Shown in pieces: positions 50,755-55,982 of a stretch of DNA of 64,000 bases (positions are counted from its first letter, which is position 1; the number at the start of each line of letters is the position of its first letter). Origin of the DNA: a virus; IMG/VR virus record IMGVR_UViG_3300045003_000166, positions 8,564-72,563 of that record; one strand, 5' to 3'. The translations under genes were made by a program, and so were the position numbers. The notes beneath the pieces were generated by a model. It was not told where the DNA came from. It ran no database searches and saw only the letters and a program-made list of their open reading frames with translations.

Positions 50755-52431
50755 GTGGCCAAGGGGCAGCAGCGAGCCGCCAACCCCGACCTGATGGTGG
50801 GGTTGCAGCAGCTCGCCAACGGGCTGCCCGACTACCACCGCGCAGAGATGTACTACGAGTGCACCATGCCGGAGTTTTTCGCCAGCATCCGGCTGCGGCG
50901 CGCGCTCGAGCGCACCGGTGTCTCCTTCCGCTTCAACCTCGCCTCCACCCCGGTCGATGTCATGGCGGACCGGCTGGAGATCGCCTCCCTCACCTGCCCC
51001 CAGGATGAGCAGGCCGACAACGCGCTGCAGGCGATCTGGCAGCACAACCTCATGGACCTGACGGCCGCGTCGATGCACCTGCGGGCCGGCGAATTCGGCG
51101 ACGCCTACGCGATCGTCTGGCCGTCCGCCCCCGAGCCGGACGAGGACGACGAAGGCGACGACGCCGGGAACGGGGCCAACGACGCCGCGATCGAGCAGTC
51201 CCGCCGCGCGCTCTCCCAGCGCGGCAGCTCGGCGTTCGCCACACGCGGCGTGCACCAGGTGCCGGACGACGTGGACACCGACGTCGACATCTTCTACAAC
51301 TCAGCGAAGACGACCCGGATCATCTACGACGCCGACAACCCGCGGGTGAAGCGGTTCGCGATCAAGAAGTGGACCGAGCCCGCCCCCCTGGGTTCGAAGG
51401 CGAAGCCGCAGACCCGGGTCAACCTCTACTACCGCGGCCGGATCGAGAAGTACATCTCGGCGCCCAACTCGAAGGGCAACCAGCTCAAGGACTGGCTGCG
51501 CTACGAGGACCCGGAGGACGGCGGCTGGCCGATCGAGAACCCGTTCGGCGAAATCCCGGTATTCCACTTCCGCACCGAGATGCCGTACGGGTCGCCCGAG
51601 CACCGCGGCGCGTACGGGCCGCAGGACGCCATCAACAAGCTGATGATCACGCAGATGGCGACCATCGACTACCACGGCTTCCCGCAGCGCTACGTGATCG
51701 CCGACCCGGGCAACATGAGCGACGAGCTCGCCGACTTCGACACCGACGACGACATCAACCGCTTCGAGGACACCGGCCACGACTCCACCCTGCGCTCCGG
51801 CCCGGGTGAAGTCTGGTGGCTCAACGGCGTGCGCCAGGCCGGCCAGTTCAACCCGCCCAACCCCGAGGTGTTCCTGCAGCCGCTGGACACCTACACCCGG
51901 ATGATGGCGCAGATCACTCGCACGCCGCTGCACTACTTCGATCCCCAGGTCTACAGCCGGTACGCGCCGTCCGGCGAGTCGATCCGGGCGAGCGAGGTGC
52001 CGCTGCTGAAGAAGGTGCGCAAGCGCCAGATCGCGTACGGATCGGCGTGGCTGGAAATCTTCCGCTTCGCCCTGAAGGTGGCCGGCATCACCACCGACCC
52101 GGCGCTGGATCTGCGCTGGGTACCGGCGGCCACGATCGACGACCAGGTCGGCTGGGCGATGATCATGCAGAAGCAGCAGGCCGGCGTCCCCGTCCGGCAG
52201 ACGCTGCTGGAAGCCGGCTACGACCCGGACATGGTGGACTCCTGGCTGGTGAACGGCGAAGGCCTCGAGCAGCGGGTGAACCTCCTGTCCAAGATCGCCA
52301 CCGCCGCCCAGGCGCTGGGTACCGCGACCGGGTTCGGCGTGCTCGAGCCGACCGACGTCAACAAGGTGATCATGAGCGTGCTCGAGCTTGACGACAAGAC
52401 ACAACCCGAACTCACCGTGGGGACGGCGTGA
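50755..52431 (+). CDS. portal protein (SPP1 gp6-like)
   Basis: YYE…FNLASTPVDVMADRL; FGDAYAIVW; NPFGEIPVFHF; QDAINK; PSGESIR. Confidence 0.92.
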   Translation: MAKGQQRAANPDLMVGLQQLANGLPDYHRAEMYYECTMPEFFASIRLRRALERTGVSFRFNLASTPVDVMADRLEIASLTCPQDEQADNALQAIWQHNLMDLTAASMHLRAGEFGDAYAIVWPSAPEPDEDDEGDDAGNGANDAAIEQSRRALSQRGSSAFATRGVHQVPDDVDTDVDIFYNSAKTTRIIYDADNPRVKRFAIKKWTEPAPLGSKAKPQTRVNLYYRGRIEKYISAPNSKGNQLKDWLRYEDPEDGGWPIENPFGEIPVFHFRTEMPYGSPEHRGAYGPQDAINKLMITQMATIDYHGFPQRYVIADPGNMSDELADFDTDDDINRFEDTGHDSTLRSGPGEVWWLNGVRQAGQFNPPNPEVFLQPLDTYTRMMAQITRTPLHYFDPQVYSRYAPSGESIRASEVPLLKKVRKRQIAYGSAWLEIFRFALKVAGITTDPALDLRWVPAATIDDQVGWAMIMQKQQAGVPVRQTLLEAGYDPDMVDSWLVNGEGLEQRVNLLSKIATAAQALGTATGFGVLEPTDVNKVIMSVLELDDKTQPELTVGTA

Positions 52432-52653: not shown

Positions 52654-52872
52654 ATGACGATGAGCAAGCCCGCCCGGGCGACGGTGAAGCCGACCGCGCA
52701 CGGGTACCCGGCCGTGAAGAAGGCACGCGCCGTACCCGCCATGCGCACCGACGCGCTCGGCCGGGCGAAGGCGAAGGCCCCGATGGGTGGTTCGCCCGCC
52801 GACCACGTGGTCGCCCCGCCGATCGCCGCGCGCACCGTGGACAGCAAGACCATGGGCAAGCGCCTGAAGTGA
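52654..52872 (+). CDS. small basic hypothetical protein
   Basis: RBS AAGGA; GTGA overlap with next gene. Confidence 0.5.
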   Translation: MTMSKPARATVKPTAHGYPAVKKARAVPAMRTDALGRAKAKAPMGGSPADHVVAPPIAARTVDSKTMGKRLK

Positions 52873-54779
52873 GCACGGACCCGGGCCAGGGATCGGGCGC
52901 GCCCGATTCCTTCGGCCCGGTCACCGACGCCGTCTTCGCAGCCACCGCCGCCTACACCGCCGACCTGGCCGCGCTGGAGGACCAGGCCGCGGCGGTTGCC
53001 GCGGGCCCTCTGCGCAACGGAGTCGCCGAGTTGTTGCGGCGCCTGACAGCCCTGTACGCGCGCTTGGCCGGATCACTTGACGCCCCGCTGCCCGTGTCCG
53101 CCGTCCCGCAGCTGCAGCAGGAGACCGCCGCGGCGCTGAACGCATTGCGCGCCCTCGACCCGACGCAGGCGATCGCCGACTCCGCCTCACAGGCCTACCA
53201 CCGCGCCGCGGCGTTCGGGCAAGAGCAGGTGGGCGCGGTCGCCGTCGACCAGCTGCCCGGCGCGCAGGCGGACGGCGCGCTCATCCAGGCCCTCGACGAC
53301 ATCGCCGGCACATTCTCCTCCCGGATCGACGAGGCCCAGCAGATCGCGCAGACGGTCGCAACCCTCGACTACCAATCCGCTGTCCTGGACACCGCGGCGA
53401 AGGCGGGCCAGGCGGCCGGCCGGGCGGAGGCCGCGGCCCGCTGGTCGGTGAACCGCGGCGGCAACGCCGGGATGCGCGACGTCGCCCGGCAGCGCGGCAG
53501 CTTCCTGCTCTGGGTGGGCGAGCCGACCGCGTGCCTGGCGTGTGTCGCGTACGTCGGCCACTTCGTCGTCCCCGGCCAGTCGTTCCCGATCGGGCTGACG
53601 TGGGGCGACAAGCCTCTGACGCCGTGGCCGGACCCGGATGTGCTCGACGGTCCGCCGCTGCACGCGAACTGCCTACCTGGAGACGCCCTCGTAACGTCCC
53701 GTAGTCGAATTACGGGTGCGACCTCTCGGGTATACAACGGTGAGCTCGTCGAAATCAGAACTCTGGCAAACAAAGTCTTCACCGCTACCCCCAACCATCC
53801 GGTATTGACGGACCGCGGTTGGGTCGCGCTCGGCTGCCTCGATAAGGGAAGCCACGTGGTCGGCACCCTCGGCAGTGAAGGGGTAGTGCTTCGAGACCAG
53901 AATGATCACCACGTGCCAACCCGCATCAAGCAGGTAGCGGAAGCGTTTTTGGGCTCGGGCCACGTGGTCTCCCGAGAAGTGCCAGTGGCCGCCGAAGACT
54001 TCCACGGCGACGGTACCGGTAGCGAGGTCGCAGTTGTAGGGACCAATCGCCTTTTGCGGCGTGGTCTCGATCCCTCGCTCCGAAAGCACCCTGCGGAGAT
54101 GGTGCTCGAGCGGGCTGGAGTGCGATTGCCGTCGTTCTCTCGTCCTCGCGCTGCGGAGCAGTTCACCCTCAGTCCTCTTTCGTCCGCGGACTGCAGCATG
54201 GGCCGCTTCCGCCAGACGAGCACGCTCGAGAGCGGGAGTCTGAGCCATGCGTACGTACATGGCTTCACTACGCCCTCGGGGTTCGACTCCTTGTTCCAGC
54301 AGGAAGCGATGGATTGTCCGTCGGCTGACTCCGCTGACTTCGGCCAGTGCCTTCTCGCTGGTTCCAGTGGCGTAGAGCTCGATCAGGTCATCAGCGTTCG
54401 CCGGTACCCATTTTCGGGACATGTCTACAACCTTGAGACGGAGGCAGGATGGTACATCAGCAATGGAATTGTAACCCATAACTGCCGGTGTGAGCTGATC
54501 ACCTGGCTGGGGCCGGCCGCCCTGCACCCGGTGGACACCGCGATCTACCACCGGCCCGAGCTGCAGGGGAACGTCGACCTGGCCGCGGCGATGCGCCGGG
54601 AGGCGAAGCGCGCCGTCCTGCGCGGCTGGTCGCTGCCCAGCGAGTCGGAGGCGGTGCGGCTGCGCGGAGCCGAGCGGCTGCTGCGCGCCGGGTCCGGACT
54701 GCCGAAGACGGTGGAGGCGCGGGCCCGCAAGGCGGTCAAGGACAGGCACTTCCCCGATCGCCGTCATGTCAATATCTGA
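52869..54779 (+). CDS. MuF/gp7-like minor head protein containing an intein
   Basis: ACLAC…PPLHAN|CRC motif interrupted by an intein; located between portal and scaffold. Confidence 0.85.
   Translation: MSTDPGQGSGAPDSFGPVTDAVFAATAAYTADLAALEDQAAAVAAGPLRNGVAELLRRLTALYARLAGSLDAPLPVSAVPQLQQETAAALNALRALDPTQAIADSASQAYHRAAAFGQEQVGAVAVDQLPGAQADGALIQALDDIAGTFSSRIDEAQQIAQTVATLDYQSAVLDTAAKAGQAAGRAEAAARWSVNRGGNAGMRDVARQRGSFLLWVGEPTACLACVAYVGHFVVPGQSFPIGLTWGDKPLTPWPDPDVLDGPPLHANCLPGDALVTSRSRITGATSRVYNGELVEIRTLANKVFTATPNHPVLTDRGWVALGCLDKGSHVVGTLGSEGVVLRDQNDHHVPTRIKQVAEAFLGSGHVVSREVPVAAEDFHGDGTGSEVAVVGTNRLLRRGLDPSLRKHPAEMVLERAGVRLPSFSRPRAAEQFTLSPLSSADCSMGRFRQTSTLESGSLSHAYVHGFTTPSGFDSLFQQEAMDCPSADSADFGQCLLAGSSGVELDQVISVRRYPFSGHVYNLETEAGWYISNGIVTHNCRCELITWLGPAALHPVDTAIYHRPELQGNVDLAAAMRREAKRAVLRGWSLPSESEAVRLRGAERLLRAGSGLPKTVEARARKAVKDRHFPDRRHVNI
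53670..54482 (+). mobile_element. intein (271 aa)
   Basis: Block A CLPGDALV; block B TPNHPVLT; block F VYNLET; block G NGIVTHN followed by Cys+1; lower GC than flanks. Confidence 0.92.
53673..54422 (-). CDS. HTH + DUF559/Vsr-like endonuclease encoded antisense inside the intein
   Basis: LIELYATGTSEKALAEVSGVSRRTIHRFL HTH; SPLE…Q…IGPYNCDL…AVEVFGGHWH…LLDAGWHVVII; AAGG upstream of ATG. Confidence 0.8.
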   Translation of the reverse strand: MSRKWVPANADDLIELYATGTSEKALAEVSGVSRRTIHRFLLEQGVEPRGRSEAMYVRMAQTPALERARLAEAAHAAVRGRKRTEGELLRSARTRERRQSHSSPLEHHLRRVLSERGIETTPQKAIGPYNCDLATGTVAVEVFGGHWHFSGDHVARAQKRFRYLLDAGWHVVIILVSKHYPFTAEGADHVASLIEAAERDPTAVRQYRMVGGSGEDFVCQSSDFDELTVVYPRGRTRNSTTGRYEGVSR

Positions 54780-54834
54780 GCATCAAGTCCTATAGTTGAC
54801 GCAACGTCCCCGGACTCCGCGATGGAGGCTGTAC

Positions 54835-55557
54835 ATGCTGATCGAGAATCCCTTCGCCCCGCTCGGCTTCCTGGGCGACGGCACCGCGGTCTACCCCTTG
54901 GCCGGCGCCGAGCCGCAGGAGGGCGAACTCGAGATCGAACCCGAAGACGAGGGCGTCGAGACCGGCGACGAGCCGGAGGACGGCGCCGACGCAGAGCCGG
55001 GTGGCGACGACGAGAAGGAGAAGCTGCGCGAGGCGCTGCGCAAGGCGAACGGCGAGGCCCGCAAGTACCGGCTGCAGGTGCGCGAGATGCAGGCGAAAGC
55101 AGCCGAGGCCGCGGTCGAGGAGGTCGAGGAGGAGGCGGCGCAGACCGGCGCTGAGGTCACTCCCGCCCAACTCAAGCGCGCGGTGGACAAGGCTAAGGCC
55201 GACGCCACGAAGGCGGCCGAGATCAAGTACCGCAAGGTCGCCGTCAACGCCGCCGCCCAGTCCGAGTTCGTCAAGGCGGGCGCGAAGGCCGCGAACGTGG
55301 CCAAGCTGGTGCGCCTTCTCGACGTGGACGACGTGGACATCGACGCCGAGACCGGCGAGGTGACCGGCGGCCTGGCCGAGCAGATCGACGCCCTCAAGGA
55401 CGAGTTCCCGGAGCTGTTCACCCCGGCGGAGGCTGCGAAGCCGGCCAAGCGCGCGCCCGTCAAGCGCGCCGCGGCGGCGCCCCGCCAGGAGGCGGAGCCT
55501 CAGGCCCTCAGTTCGGCCGAGAAGATCGCACAGCAGCTGCTCGGCACCGGCCGCTGA
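54835..55557 (+). CDS. capsid scaffolding protein
   Basis: Acidic N-terminus, ALRKANGEARKYR coiled coil, LKDEFPELF; GGAGG RBS. Confidence 0.88.
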   Translation: MLIENPFAPLGFLGDGTAVYPLAGAEPQEGELEIEPEDEGVETGDEPEDGADAEPGGDDEKEKLREALRKANGEARKYRLQVREMQAKAAEAAVEEVEEEAAQTGAEVTPAQLKRAVDKAKADATKAAEIKYRKVAVNAAAQSEFVKAGAKAANVAKLVRLLDVDDVDIDAETGEVTGGLAEQIDALKDEFPELFTPAEAAKPAKRAPVKRAAAAPRQEAEPQALSSAEKIAQQLLGTGR

Positions 55558-55559
55558 CC

Positions 55560-55982
55560 GTGGCGCTGCGCATCAGCCGGTCGATGCGCGACCGGATCGT
55601 CACCGACTGCGTGTTGCGCCTGCCCCTGGAGGGCTGCGGCGTGGTGTCAGCGAAGGGCAGGTTCATCCCGCTGCCCAATGCCGCCAAGTCGCCCGAGCGC
55701 TTCGCCTTCGACCCGGCGCTGCAACTGCGCGTGTGGCAGGAGCTGGACGCCGTGGGCGACCGGGTGGCGATCGTCTACCACTCCCACCCGGACAGCGCTG
55801 CTCGCCCGTCGGCGACAGATGTCCTGCACGCCCGGCTCCATCCGGGTGTGCACCATGTCATCGTCGGCCCGGTCGCCCGTGAGCCGAGGGAGTTCACCTC
55901 CTGGCAGGTGTCGGATCGTCAGACACTGGCGCGCGAGGACGTCGAGATCCTCGACGCCCCGCTGCCCGAGGGCGTGTTCTGA
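55560..55982 (+). CDS. JAB/MPN (M67) metalloprotease
   Basis: PLEGCG; IVYHSHPDSAARPSATD = E…HxH-x7-S-x2-D JAMM motif. Confidence 0.9.
   Translation: MALRISRSMRDRIVTDCVLRLPLEGCGVVSAKGRFIPLPNAAKSPERFAFDPALQLRVWQELDAVGDRVAIVYHSHPDSAARPSATDVLHARLHPGVHHVIVGPVAREPREFTSWQVSDRQTLAREDVEILDAPLPEGVF

What the first reader, a model, noticed from the sequence alone, without database searches (positions are those of the whole stretch)
53670..54482. Intein whose endonuclease is encoded on the opposite strand
Seen in sequence: the MuF-like gene carries a 271-aa intein (CLPGD…TPNHP…VYNLET…THN/C) inside the conserved PPLHAN|CRC motif. Its central plus-strand region shows no LAGLIDADG or HNH motif and reads like shadow sequence. 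The minus strand holds an uninterrupted 249-aa ORF (54422 to 53673) whose stop TAG is the complement of intein codon 2, so it spans nearly the whole intein in register. That ORF has an N-terminal HTH, a basic linker and a DUF559/Vsr-like nuclease pattern (SPLE…Q…IGPY.CDL…AVEVFGGHWH…L..GW.V). Established: intein homing endonucleases are normally in-frame domains of the intein, and Vsr-like nucleases are known homing-type enzymes. Inference: this is a dual-coding mobile element, splicing from one strand and homing from the other. That would let the nuclease be expressed independently of late head-gene transcription. I do not know of this architecture being described.
Basis: partly seen in the sequence, partly recalled or inferred. 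Interest (0 to 1): 0.92.

Follow-up and report, generated by a model that had tools for sequence, protein, structure and literature searches.

The report
Intein with antisense homing-endonuclease gene
A self-splicing protein insert (intein) in a phage head gene carries its DNA-cutting "homing" enzyme as a separate gene on the opposite DNA strand; this is real and under selection, but the arrangement was already described in a 2025 preprint, so this is a new member of a known kind.

Summary
Window 53670-54482 (+) is a 271-aa class-1 intein in the head gene 52869-54779. Window 54422-53673 (-) is a 249-aa ORF in exact codon register with it.

The minus-strand ORF is the real gene in the middle of the intein.
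- It folds confidently (pLDDT 85) into an HTH plus a Vsr-type nuclease (Z 11.6 to 1cw0, 10.0 to I-Bth0305I). The plus-strand middle does not fold (pLDDT 32-44).
- Substitutions follow the minus-strand codon phase in the middle and the plus-strand phase in the exteins and last 21 codons.
- Antisense stop-making codons are about 15-fold depleted.
- One free-standing homologue lies beside an intein-less MuF gene.

The family is large: 122 of 123 loci show the same in-register arrangement.

New here: synonymous sites of splicing block G spell TATAAT/TACAAT on the nuclease strand in 54 of 95 loci. Block F supplies an SD-like site and ATG.

The architecture itself ("anti-sense VSR-like HEN" inteins, including in minor capsid proteins) is in bioRxiv 10.1101/2025.01.02.630785. 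Expression, splicing and cleavage remain untested.

The parts
52869..54779 (+). Host head gene (MuF/SPP1-gp7-like by position), 636-aa precursor including the intein
   Evidence: ORF. Neighbours are SPP1-type portal, scaffold, Prok-JAB and major capsid. The exteins alone hit no family.
53670..54482 (+). Class-1 intein, 271 aa (Cys1 ... His-Asn, +1 Cys at 54483)
   Evidence: The A2 alignment has C1, T40, N42, H43, P44 and N271 invariant. The fold matches RecA, RadA and DnaB intein splicing domains.
53670..53867 (+). HINT N-lobe (intein residues 1-66; block B TPNHP at 53787-53801)
   Evidence: AF2 pLDDT 82-95 over residues 1-60 and 76 for the 61-70 block; conservation in A2.
54372..54482 (+). 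HINT C-lobe (intein residues 235-271; blocks F GHVYNLET and G NGIVTHN)
   Evidence: AF2 pLDDT 84-96. Substitutions in relatives follow the sense codon phase here.
53673..54422 (-). Antisense gene, 249 aa plus TAG: HTH - helical linker - Vsr-like nuclease - disordered tail
54294..54395 (-). Helix-turn-helix DNA-binding module (nuclease residues 10-43)
   Evidence: Pfam HTH_58, HTH_7 and HTH_23. Z 6.3 to the Hin recombinase DNA-binding domain and 5.7-5.9 to Mos1 HTH. pLDDT 95-96.
53760..54125 (-). Vsr/EDxHD-like nuclease domain (residues 100-221; E106, D132, E141, H148, H153, R160 conserved). Residues 157-221 are encoded opposite intein codons 31-95.
   Evidence: Z 11.6 to 1cw0 (rmsd 2.4, 113 aligned), 10.9 to 1vsr, 10.0 to 3r3p, 9.1 to 3hrl. 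The profile hits 3hrl at E 2.6e-5 and 3r3p at E 0.0022.
53676..53759 (-). C-terminal tail of the antisense protein (residues 222-249), predicted disordered, opposite intein codons 3-30
   Evidence: pLDDT 45-49. Both frames look constrained in relatives: codon position 2 differs at 0.027 per site.
54468..54473 (-). TACAAT, a candidate -10 box for the antisense gene, written by block G codons Ile267 ATT and Val268 GTA
   Evidence: Sequence. The same position reads TAnnnT in 54 of 95 loci against 1.6% background, with strong synonymous-codon bias. Function is inferred, not shown.
54431..54434 (-). AAGG, a Shine-Dalgarno-like site 8 nt before the antisense ATG, complement of block F Asn-Leu codons
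   Evidence: Sequence. An SD-like 4-mer lies at -17..-5 in 80 of 95 loci.
54420..54422 (-). Antisense start codon ATG, the complement of the His251 CAT just before block F
   Evidence: The same position is ATG in 46, GTG in 10 and TTG in 2 of 95 loci.
53661..53669 (+). N-extein half of the presumed homing site (CACGCGAAC = His-Ala-Asn); the other half is 54483-54491 (TGCCGGTGT = Cys-Arg-Cys)
   Evidence: Sequence. All 102 of 102 unique intein-bearing loci begin with Cys, mostly after H-x-x (-3..-1 residues: HPN in 36, other H-x-x variants in most of the rest). That this is the cleavage target is inferred.

Best explanation
This is a two-strand mobile element.

On the + strand, a class-1 intein (HINT N-lobe, an unstructured ~125-170-residue spacer, HINT C-lobe) is translated inside the phage's MuF-like head protein. 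It is presumed to splice itself out, restoring ...HAN-CRC....

On the - strand, in exact codon register, a separate 249-aa gene encodes an HTH DNA-binding module, a helical linker and a Vsr/EDxHD-type nuclease. This protein is the element's homing endonuclease. It is inferred to cut intein-less alleles of the head gene in co-infecting phages near the HxN|C(R)C-coding site. Repair then copies the intein and the nuclease gene together.

The middle of the intein evolves as minus-strand coding sequence that is merely kept free of plus-strand stops. Intein codons ~31-95 are truly dual coding: HINT N-lobe on one strand, the last helix and strands of the Vsr fold on the other.

The nuclease gene appears to carry its own expression signals inside the intein. 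A -10 hexamer is written in synonymous sites of block G. An SD-like site and the ATG are written in block F. It can therefore be transcribed against the late head operon and moves as a self-contained cassette.

Shown: anatomy, homology, fold, selection pattern, distribution. Inferred: splicing, transcription from the internal -10, cleavage target, homing.
For: (1) Homology.
- P0001 has 126 database homologues (E down to 7e-68). Several are named very-short-patch-repair endonuclease by JGI or carry PF18741/PF04480.
- The A1 profile hits 3hrl at E 2.6e-5 and I-Bth0305I (3r3p) at E 0.0022.

(2) Fold.
- The antisense model has mean pLDDT 85.2, with residues 1-221 mostly above 90.
- Z is 11.6 to 1cw0, 10.9 to 1vsr, 10.0 to 3r3p and 9.1 to 3hrl over residues 100-221.
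- The sense model has pLDDT 32-44 over residues 107-232, with only the HINT lobes confident. Those lobes match intein splicing domains.

(3) Selection, 10 Guernseyvirinae genes, 45 pairs.
- Exteins differ at sense positions 1/2/3 by .144/.092/.439.
- The intein middle differs by .204/.042/.081. Changed codons there are synonymous only in the antisense frame 1133 times and only in the sense frame 207 times.
- The last 21 intein codons differ by .010/.010/.111.
- The same direction holds in 103 unique loci and for the window against L004, L005 and L006.

(4) Stop depletion. Sense codons TTA/CTA/TCA, which are antisense stops, number 639 of 40284 in exteins, 48 of 1995 in the last 21 intein codons, and 28 of 25730 in intein codons 3..L-21.

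(5) Arrangement. In 122 of 123 loci an in-register opposite frame of 294-1443 codons covers the whole nuclease match. All 102 of 102 unique intein loci start with Cys. In 95 of 102 the block F/G ... N|C end was found by pattern, and by eye in 6 of the other 7.

(6) Free-standing homologue. L095 2501-3196 is 42% identical (E 1e-53). It has 3 stops in the in-register opposite frame. It lies tail-to-tail with an intein-less Phage_Mu_F gene (67 bits) that has an uninterrupted HPQCRC.

(7) Expression signals.
- The nuclease-strand hexamer opposite block G codons L-4/L-3 is TAnnnT in 54 of 95 loci (TATAAT 27, TACAAT 15). Background is 1.6% per offset.
- Ile is ATT in 55 of 74 cases there, against 438 of 1861 in exteins. 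ATA accounts for 40 of 49 Ile, against 327 of 1861. GTA accounts for 19 of 32 Val, against 301 of 2496.
- TGn precedes the hexamer in 29 of 54.
- A start codon lies opposite the residue before block F in 58 of 95, and an SD-like 4-mer in 80 of 95.

(8) Mobility. Of 348 phage records matching the PK2 head gene, 58 cover at least 80% of it. Most of the listed others match in two pieces spanning 1044 nt, which is a precise absence of the intein at about 90% extein identity.

(9) Foreign composition. Intein GC is 0.55-0.65 against 0.72-0.79 in the flanks. Extein GC3 is 0.92 and intein GC3 about 0.70.
Against: - No expression data: no RNA run holds the stretch.
- The strict sigma-70 scan finds no promoter in window 53300-55000 or upstream of the nuclease gene in phage Snoke. 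No -35 element was identified.
- The window protein's own Pfam scores are below the curated cut-offs for both the intein and the nuclease families.
- The fifth residue of the EDxHD motif (Asp222 of I-Bth0305I) aligns with non-conserved Ala157.
- The -10 hexamer is absent in 41 of 95 loci, and the start codon is not at the block F position in 37 of 95.
- Loci were collected by similarity to the nuclease, which favours intact antisense frames.
- Sequence pairs are phylogenetically related, not independent.
- The window's phage has no close relatives in the phage collection. Presence/absence polymorphism is therefore shown only for other clades.
- The preprint notes that some VSR-like inteins look vertically inherited.
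Confidence: 0.75

Rival explanations
1. The minus-strand gene is real and selected, but it is not this intein's homing enzyme. It would be a free-standing selfish or accessory nuclease / DNA-binding protein that uses the intein as a harmless landing pad, with a target or role elsewhere. Examples are cutting competitor phage genomes at another site, or regulation of the late operon by antisense transcription.
For: A free-standing homologue exists next to, not inside, an intein-less MuF gene. The cleavage target is not known. The fifth EDxHD residue is not matched. Head-on transcription of the late operon would have regulatory side effects.
Against: 122 of 123 homologues sit in the same register in inteins. 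These are almost all at one MuF site; one locus, L106, sits at a second site in the same gene. Intein and nuclease are present or absent together, as a precise 816-nt unit, among about 90%-identical Salmonella phage genes. The free-standing copy also neighbours the same target gene.
Confidence: 0.13
2. In this particular phage the element is a vertically inherited relic. The intein still splices, but the antisense nuclease is no longer expressed or active.
For: There are no close relatives with or without the intein to show recent movement. No promoter was found by the strict scan. The preprint reports vertical-looking patterns for several VSR-like intein groups.
Against: The ORF is intact at 249 aa with all family-invariant residues present. 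TACAAT, AAGG and ATG are all present at the family positions. The window against L004-L006 shows 36-42 changed codons synonymous in the nuclease frame and 12-16 in the intein frame in the middle region. The intein keeps a foreign GC content.
Confidence: 0.09
3. The minus-strand ORF is a non-coding shadow of a novel plus-strand domain, kept open only by composition.
For: In high-GC DNA, in-register antisense frames are often open. Plus-strand motifs such as AAEDFHGDG are conserved.
Against: The frame stays open in 25 loci with GC 0.37-0.54, where chance is 5e-2 to 5e-9 for 24 of them. Substitutions follow the antisense phase. There is independent homology and fold similarity to Vsr, DUF559-like and I-Bth0305I structures. 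The sense middle has pLDDT 32-44. A free-standing homologue has a closed opposite frame.
Confidence: 0.03

Closest known systems
Inteins with anti-sense VSR-like homing endonucleases in actinobacteriophages (Gosselin, Arsenault & Gogarten, bioRxiv 10.1101/2025.01.02.630785; sections 6, 8, 15, 28 and passages read)
   Same: A full cis-splicing intein whose HEN region does not fold in frame. A VSR-like nuclease is encoded on the antisense strand. Minor capsid (SPP1 gp7/MuF-type) proteins are among the hosts. The nuclease matches 1CW0 (their Z 10.6; mine 11.6) and 3R3P. Origin is proposed by invasion of an intein by a free-standing HEN.
   Different: That survey covers PhagesDB actinophages only and calls the architecture rare. 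[quoted passage not shown] Here the ORF overlaps the whole N-lobe. The family has at least 571 IMG/VR loci and 128 GenBank phage records from many host phyla. Codon-phase and embedded-signal evidence is added. The paper's supplements were not visible to me.
Anti-sense LAGLIDADG inteins (Synechocystis DnaX and others; Gorbalenya 1998 and Gogarten 2002, known to me only as cited in the preprint)
   Same: The homing endonuclease is encoded on the strand opposite the intein.
   Different: The nuclease family is different (LAGLIDADG). I did not read these papers and did not compare sequences.
Fractured genes: split inteins with a free-standing Vsr-like HEG between the halves (Dassa et al. 2009, PMC2677866; abstract and passages read)
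   Same: The same broad nuclease superfamily is associated with inteins in phage-like DNA. The HEG is a separate gene with its own control elements.
   Different: [quoted passage not shown] Here the intein stays contiguous because the inserted gene lies on the other strand, in register, and the sense frame is kept open.
I-Bth0305I, prototype of the EDxHD homing endonucleases (Taylor et al. 2011, PMC3239194; passages read; PDB 3r3p)
   Same: A bipartite DNA-binding plus Vsr-like catalytic domain. Z 10.0 over residues 103-199. Glu, Asp, the extra acidic residue and His align with E106, D132, E141 and H148.
   Different: It is encoded in a group I intron of recA. It has N-terminal NUMOD repeats rather than this HTH plus long helical linker. 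Asp222 has no conserved counterpart in my alignment; H153 and R160 are invariant instead.
E. coli Vsr mismatch endonuclease (PDB 1vsr, 1cw0)
   Same: It is the best structural match to residues 100-221 (Z 11.6 and 10.9, rmsd 2.2-2.4).
   Different: Sequence identity is 19%. Vsr is a repair enzyme nicking T:G mismatches. It has no HTH arm and is not a mobile-element gene.

Membership tests
Class-1 intein (HINT splicing domain) | Cys/Ser at position 1, block B TxxH, C-terminal His-Asn, and a nucleophile at +1 | tested here: met
   The window has C1, T40-P-N-H43, H270-N271 and +1 Cys. C1, T40, H43 and N271 are invariant in 26 inteins. Cys1 occurs in 102 of 102 unique loci. HN occurs in 84 of 95 and +1 Cys in 95 of 95.
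Class-1 intein (HINT splicing domain) | HINT fold | tested here: met
   The AF2 lobes are confident. Foldseek hits the Mtu RecA intein at E 3.7e-4 and the Pho RadA intein at 4.1e-4, both with probability 1.00.
Class-1 intein (HINT splicing domain) | Pfam Intein_splicing above the gathering score | tested here: not met
   29.6 bits against a 35.8 cut-off, E 7e-7. The long insert splits the match.
Class-1 intein (HINT splicing domain) | Protein splicing activity | not testable with these tools
   Needs expression of the precursor and detection of the spliced 365-aa product.
Vsr-like / EDxHD homing endonucleases | Vsr-type nuclease fold | tested here: met
   Z 11.6 (1cw0), 10.9 (1vsr) and 10.0 (3r3p) over residues 100-221; the next unrelated rows score Z 6-7.
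Vsr-like / EDxHD homing endonucleases | Motif residues E, D, x (acidic), H | tested here: met
   E106 and D132 are invariant; E141 and H148 are nearly invariant in A1. They align to E170, D196, the acidic position and H213 of I-Bth0305I.
Vsr-like / EDxHD homing endonucleases | Final Asp of EDxHD (Asp222 of I-Bth0305I, Asp97 of Vsr) | tested here: inconclusive
   In the profile alignment it falls on non-conserved A157, while H153 and R160 are invariant nearby. This is a sequence alignment only; no structural superposition of side chains was done.
Vsr-like / EDxHD homing endonucleases | Curated family score (PF18741 REase_MTES_1575 / PF04480 DUF559) | tested here: not met
   The window protein scores 24.5 bits against a 38.2 cut-off. 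Many homologues carry precomputed PF18741 hits and a few carry PF04480.
Vsr-like / EDxHD homing endonucleases | Site-specific cleavage of the element-free allele | not testable with these tools
   Needs purified protein and an intein-less target.
Mobile (homing) intein | Sporadic presence or precise absence among closely related host genes | tested here: met
   This is shown for relatives, not for the window's own clade. 58 of 348 Guernseyvirinae-type records carry the intein. Most of the listed others show a two-piece match spanning 1044 nt. SETP13 has a 1044-nt intein-less gene. The window has no close relatives in the collection.
Phage_Mu_F / SPP1 gp7 minor capsid protein (host gene) | Family profile match of the exteins | tested here: not met
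   The window N- and C-exteins have no Pfam or PHROG hit. Hosts or neighbours of homologous elements do match: the L095 neighbour at 67.4 bits and SETP13 at 36.7 bits against a 29.6 cut-off. Window synteny fits: portal - gene - scaffold - capsid.

The most novel reading that the evidence does not exclude
The element would be a self-contained, bidirectionally coded homing cassette.

- The last two splicing blocks of the intein double, through their synonymous sites, as the promoter -10 box (block G Ile-Ile/Val = TATAAT/TACAAT), the ribosome binding site (block F Asn-Leu) and the start codon (His before block F) of the antisense endonuclease.
- The C-terminal third of the Vsr fold would be co-encoded, codon for codon, with the HINT N-lobe including catalytic block B.
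- This would be a conserved case of two folded, catalytically relevant protein modules written on opposite strands of the same ~35-65 codons.
- The arrangement would be not rare, but the dominant intein of MuF-type head genes in phages of many bacterial phyla.
Probability: 0.45. Interest if true: 0.7.

Novelty: new member of a known kind. Interest (0 to 1): 0.5.

Why it matters
Inteins are taught as single in-frame fusions of a splicing domain and a homing endonuclease. This family shows a stable alternative: two genes on two strands that move as one unit. That supports the view that inteins and their nucleases have separate origins ("splicing first").

The instance itself adds little to the 2025 preprint. 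The family-level results obtained here do add to it and are directly testable in easy laboratory systems (Salmonella Jerseyvirus and E. coli Kagunavirus phages):
- Hundreds of members exist outside actinophages.
- Selection switches strand inside the intein.
- The HINT N-lobe and the Vsr C-lobe are truly dual coded.
- The expression signals are hidden in synonymous sites of the splicing blocks.

It also matters for annotation. Gene callers usually report only the head gene. In 10 of the 11 GenBank records whose feature tables I inspected the nuclease is unannotated; only PK2 lists the antisense ORF, as a hypothetical protein.

Tried and rejected
I used the search for related loci instead.
- RNA evidence: the look-up of sequencing runs listed no RNA holder, only two soil-metagenome DNA holders that may be the source.
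- The strict sigma-70/terminator scan found nothing in window 53300-55000. In Snoke it found nothing upstream of the nuclease gene. The TGcTATAAT in Snoke has a -35 below that tool's threshold.
- blastn of the window gene against phages gave no match, so no presence/absence test was possible for the window's own clade.
- phmmer of the single protein against PDB gave only a chance-level hit. The profile was needed.
- Foldseek of the antisense model gave no E below 0.001 (best 3r3p at 1.6e-3). VIA-align gave the clear Z-scores.
- NCBIfam gave nothing meaningful.
- The search of earlier findings returned only this same stretch.
- A whole-segment MAFFT of sense frames placed boundaries for only 63 of 103 and was replaced by separate N-terminal alignment and a C-terminal pattern.
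- The MAFFT gap for the intein-less SETP13 allele was placed 6 nt short and shifted. I did not refine it and rely on the 1044-nt gene length.
- Literature searches that did not find the architecture. Searches found the single preprint. The preprint's supplements (its Supplemental Table 1 and Figures 1-2) were not seen and may already list minor-capsid VSR-like inteins.
- The rejected 'shadow ORF' reading is given under rival explanations.
- Not checked: the orientation of the match in the Pseudomonas, Klebsiella, Vibrio and other records. Only 3 records were inspected directly and 8 more were aligned.


Full report
**What is there**

The window is part of a 72.5-kb, roughly 94%-complete virus record from IMG/VR. 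The + strand ORF 52869-54779 (636 aa) lies between an SPP1-type portal gene (50755-52431) and a scaffold gene (54796-55557). A Prok-JAB gene and the major capsid gene follow. Inside it, 53670-54482 reads as a 271-aa class-1 intein. It has Cys1, block B T40-P-N-H-P, blocks F/G GHVYNLET...NGIVTHN, and Cys at +1 within ...PPLHAN|CRC....

The - strand carries a 249-aa ORF from ATG 54422 to TAG 53675-53673. Its stop is the complement of intein codon 2 (CTA), so the two frames are codon-for-codon in register. GC falls from 0.72-0.79 in the flanks to 0.55-0.65 in the intein. The exteins have GC3 of 0.92, while neither frame of the intein shows such a bias. The one exception is that the window's exteins themselves hit no MuF family; that label rests on synteny and on the hosts of homologous inteins.

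**Which strand codes in the middle of the intein**

Four independent lines agree on the minus strand.

(i) Homology.
- Pfam gives the minus-strand protein HTH families (residues 10-52) and REase_MTES_1575 (residues 106-180, E 2.8e-5), all below the curated cut-offs. The plus strand gets only the intein splicing domain.
- The protein has 126 homologues at E down to 7e-68. Several are named very-short-patch-repair endonuclease by JGI.
- A profile of 32 of them has E106, Q123, Y129, N130, D132, V140 and R160 invariant (along with G20, R49, H75, A77 and A92), and E141, W147, H148 and H153 nearly so. It hits the DUF559-like structure 3hrl at E 2.6e-5 and the homing endonuclease I-Bth0305I (3r3p) at E 0.0022.

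(ii) Fold.
- With similar alignment depth (32 and 26 rows), the minus-strand protein is modelled at mean pLDDT 85.2, with residues 1-221 mostly above 90. The plus-strand intein scores 62.0: both HINT lobes are confident, but residues 107-232 score 32-44.
- The minus-strand model matches Vsr-DNA (1cw0) at Z 11.6 (rmsd 2.4 Å, 113 residues), 1vsr at 10.9, 3r3p at 10.0 and 3hrl at 9.1 over residues 100-221. Its N-terminus matches Hin/Mos1-type HTH domains at Z about 6.
- The plus-strand model matches only intein splicing domains.

(iii) Substitution phase.
- In ten Guernseyvirinae head genes (45 non-independent pairs), exteins differ at sense codon positions 1/2/3 by .144/.092/.439.
- The intein middle differs by .204/.042/.081, which is the wobble position of the antisense frame. 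Changed codons there are synonymous only in the antisense frame 1133 times and only in the sense frame 207 times.
- The last 21 intein codons return to the sense phase (.010/.010/.111).
- Across 103 unique loci, amino-acid identity is higher in the nuclease frame for the HTH (0.31 against 0.18), the linker (0.34 against 0.18) and the core (0.48 against 0.33). It is higher in the intein frame over the N-terminal blocks (0.45 against 0.35). That alignment was built on the nuclease frame, which favours it.
- The window compared with its three closest relatives behaves the same way.

(iv) Stops.
- Sense codons that would be antisense stops (TTA, CTA, TCA) make up 1.6% of extein codons (639 of 40284) and 2.4% of the last 21 intein codons (48 of 1995). 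They make up 0.11% of intein codons 3 to L-21 (28 of 25730).
- In the 25 loci with GC below 0.55, the chance of an open frame is 5e-2 to 5e-9 for 24 of them. The 25th has too little extein to estimate a frequency.
- The loci were collected by similarity to the nuclease, so this last test is somewhat biased toward intact frames.

**The family**

- tblastn of the nuclease finds 128 GenBank phage records at below 60% identity: Salmonella 64, Gordonia 15, Pseudomonas 15, Klebsiella 8, Escherichia 6 and others. I confirmed the antisense position under a MuF/head-morphogenesis gene directly in three (Snoke, Vivi2, PK2). PK2 even annotates the antisense ORF as a hypothetical protein.
- In 122 of the 123 loci held, an opposite-strand frame in exact register, 294-1443 codons long, covers the whole nuclease match.
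- All 102 unique intein-bearing loci start with Cys, mostly after H-x-x (HPN in 36). The C-terminal block F/G ... (H/S)N|C was found by pattern in 95 and by eye in 6 of the other 7. The median intein length is 274 residues.
- The nuclease stop is the complement of intein codon 2 in 65 of 102.
- The exception is informative. In L095 (a Thermoleophilia MAG) a 231-aa homologue (42% identity, E 1e-53) is free-standing. Its in-register opposite frame has three stops. It lies tail-to-tail with an intein-less Phage_Mu_F gene (67 bits) whose HPQCRC site is uninterrupted. So the nuclease is an autonomous gene that also exists outside inteins, beside the same target gene.

**True dual coding**

Nuclease residue i lies opposite intein codon 252-i. 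The Vsr fold runs to residue 221. Its last helix and two strands (residues 186-221, pLDDT blocks 94, 92, 84, 77) are therefore encoded opposite intein codons 31-66 (pLDDT blocks 93, 93, 95, 76), which include catalytic block B. The free-standing L095 protein keeps this segment, so it belongs to the nuclease and is not a mere read-through. In relatives, intein codons 31-95 show nearly equal change at positions 1 and 3 and little at position 2 (.115/.050/.144). That is what constraint in both frames would give. [quoted passage not shown]

**Expression signals inside the intein (inferred)**

- In the window, the minus strand reads TACAAT at 54473-54468 (complement of block G codons Ile267 ATT and Val268 GTA). 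It reads AAGG at 54434-54431 (complement of block F Asn-Leu), then 8 nt, then ATG 54422 (complement of His251 CAT).
- Across 95 loci, the hexamer at that position is TAnnnT in 54 (TATAAT 27, TACAAT 15). The mean at other offsets is 1.6%.
- The codon choice is strongly skewed there. Ile is ATT in 55 of 74 cases, against 438 of 1861 in exteins and 16 of 48 elsewhere in the last 21 codons. ATA accounts for 40 of 49 Ile at the next codon, against 327 of 1861. GTA accounts for 19 of 32 Val, against 301 of 2496.
- TGn precedes the hexamer in 29 of 54. Phage Snoke has TGcTATAAT there.
- A second TAnnnT, from the Trp-Tyr codons, occurs in 34 of 95.
- A start codon lies opposite the residue before block F in 58 of 95, and an SD-like 4-mer lies upstream in 80 of 95.
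- I found no -35 element, and the strict scanner reports no promoter. No RNA data exist for the stretch. The promoter is therefore a hypothesis supported by synonymous-site constraint, not a demonstrated feature.

**Mobility**

Of 348 phage records matching the PK2 head gene, 58 contain the intein. Most of the listed others match in two pieces spanning 1044 nt, at about 88-91% extein identity. That is a precise absence of the 816-nt unit. This presence/absence polymorphism fits ongoing homing, though precise loss cannot be excluded from these counts. No such test is possible for the window's own clade.

**What is known**

The preprint by Gosselin, Arsenault and Gogarten (bioRxiv 10.1101/2025.01.02.630785, version of 2025-10-20) surveys 784 actinophage inteins.
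[quoted passage not shown] The hosts are DNA polymerase, minor capsid, terminase and thymidylate synthase.
- It states that the in-frame region makes no recognisable structure.
- It matches the antisense protein to 1CW0 (Z 10.6) and, by HHpred, to 3R3P.
- It proposes origin by invasion of an intein by a free-standing HEN.
- It cites antisense LAGLIDADG inteins from 1998 and 2002.

I read sections 6, 8, 15 and passages of 3, 12, 14 and 28, but not the supplements. Its main text does not contain the words promoter, ribosome binding, Salmonella or metagenom-. Dassa et al. 2009 describe the related split-intein 'fractured genes' with same-orientation Vsr-like HEGs. Taylor et al. 2011 define the EDxHD family. 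My searches for the architecture elsewhere found nothing further.

**Verdict**

It is, however, a new member of a kind already described. What goes beyond the preprint's main text is:
- the size and host breadth of the family;
- the strict codon register;
- the strand switch of selection;
- the co-encoding of the HINT N-lobe with the Vsr C-lobe;
- the free-standing copy beside an empty target gene;
- the -10/SD/ATG signals written into blocks F and G.

All of these are computational. Transcription, translation, splicing and cleavage remain to be shown.

Noticed in passing
L106 (Frankiales MAG), sense frame of the head gene: The same type of intein with an antisense nuclease sits at a different site of the MuF-like gene (...ERDA|C ... 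HN|CVVC...). That is about 50 residues upstream of an uninterrupted PPRHPRCRC motif. It suggests a second insertion site at the gene's other Cys-x-x-Cys-like motif (output).
   Followed up: no
L095 2501-3196 (+) and 3180-4226 (-): A free-standing homologue of the nuclease overlaps by 17 nt, tail-to-tail, the 3' end of an intein-less Phage_Mu_F gene. This may be a snapshot of the state before intein invasion or after escape.
   Followed up: partly
window 55560-55982 (+): A 140-aa Prok-JAB (JAMM-type) domain protein (Pfam 66.3 bits) lies between the scaffold and major capsid genes. PHROGs places it with tail proteins. This is an unusual position in a head module.
   Followed up: no
L002 (Gordonia phage Vivi2) and relatives Affeca and Angelicage: The MuF-like gene is over 1050 codons, and the Vsr-like antisense match lies inside it. 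[quoted passage not shown] These genes may therefore carry two different non-canonical inteins, or the labels may differ.
   Followed up: no
L001 (Escherichia phage Snoke) annotation: The record's note gives a 273-residue intein (Cys244-Cys516), but its intein mat_peptide spans only 630 nt. The antisense nuclease ORF is not annotated. Some relatives label the head gene 'NAD+--asparagine ADP-ribosyltransferase'.
   Followed up: no
window 53670-54482: Neither frame of the intein shows the host's GC3 bias (0.92 in exteins against about 0.70 in the intein). Possible reasons are recent acquisition or two-frame constraint blocking amelioration.
   Followed up: partly
nuclease strand, 28 nt from the intein end, in 34 of 95 loci (window 54454-54449): A second TAnnnT hexamer (TACCAT in the window) is made by the conserved Trp-Tyr codons of the intein C-lobe, 26 nt before the antisense ATG. 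It could be an alternative -10 box.
   Followed up: no
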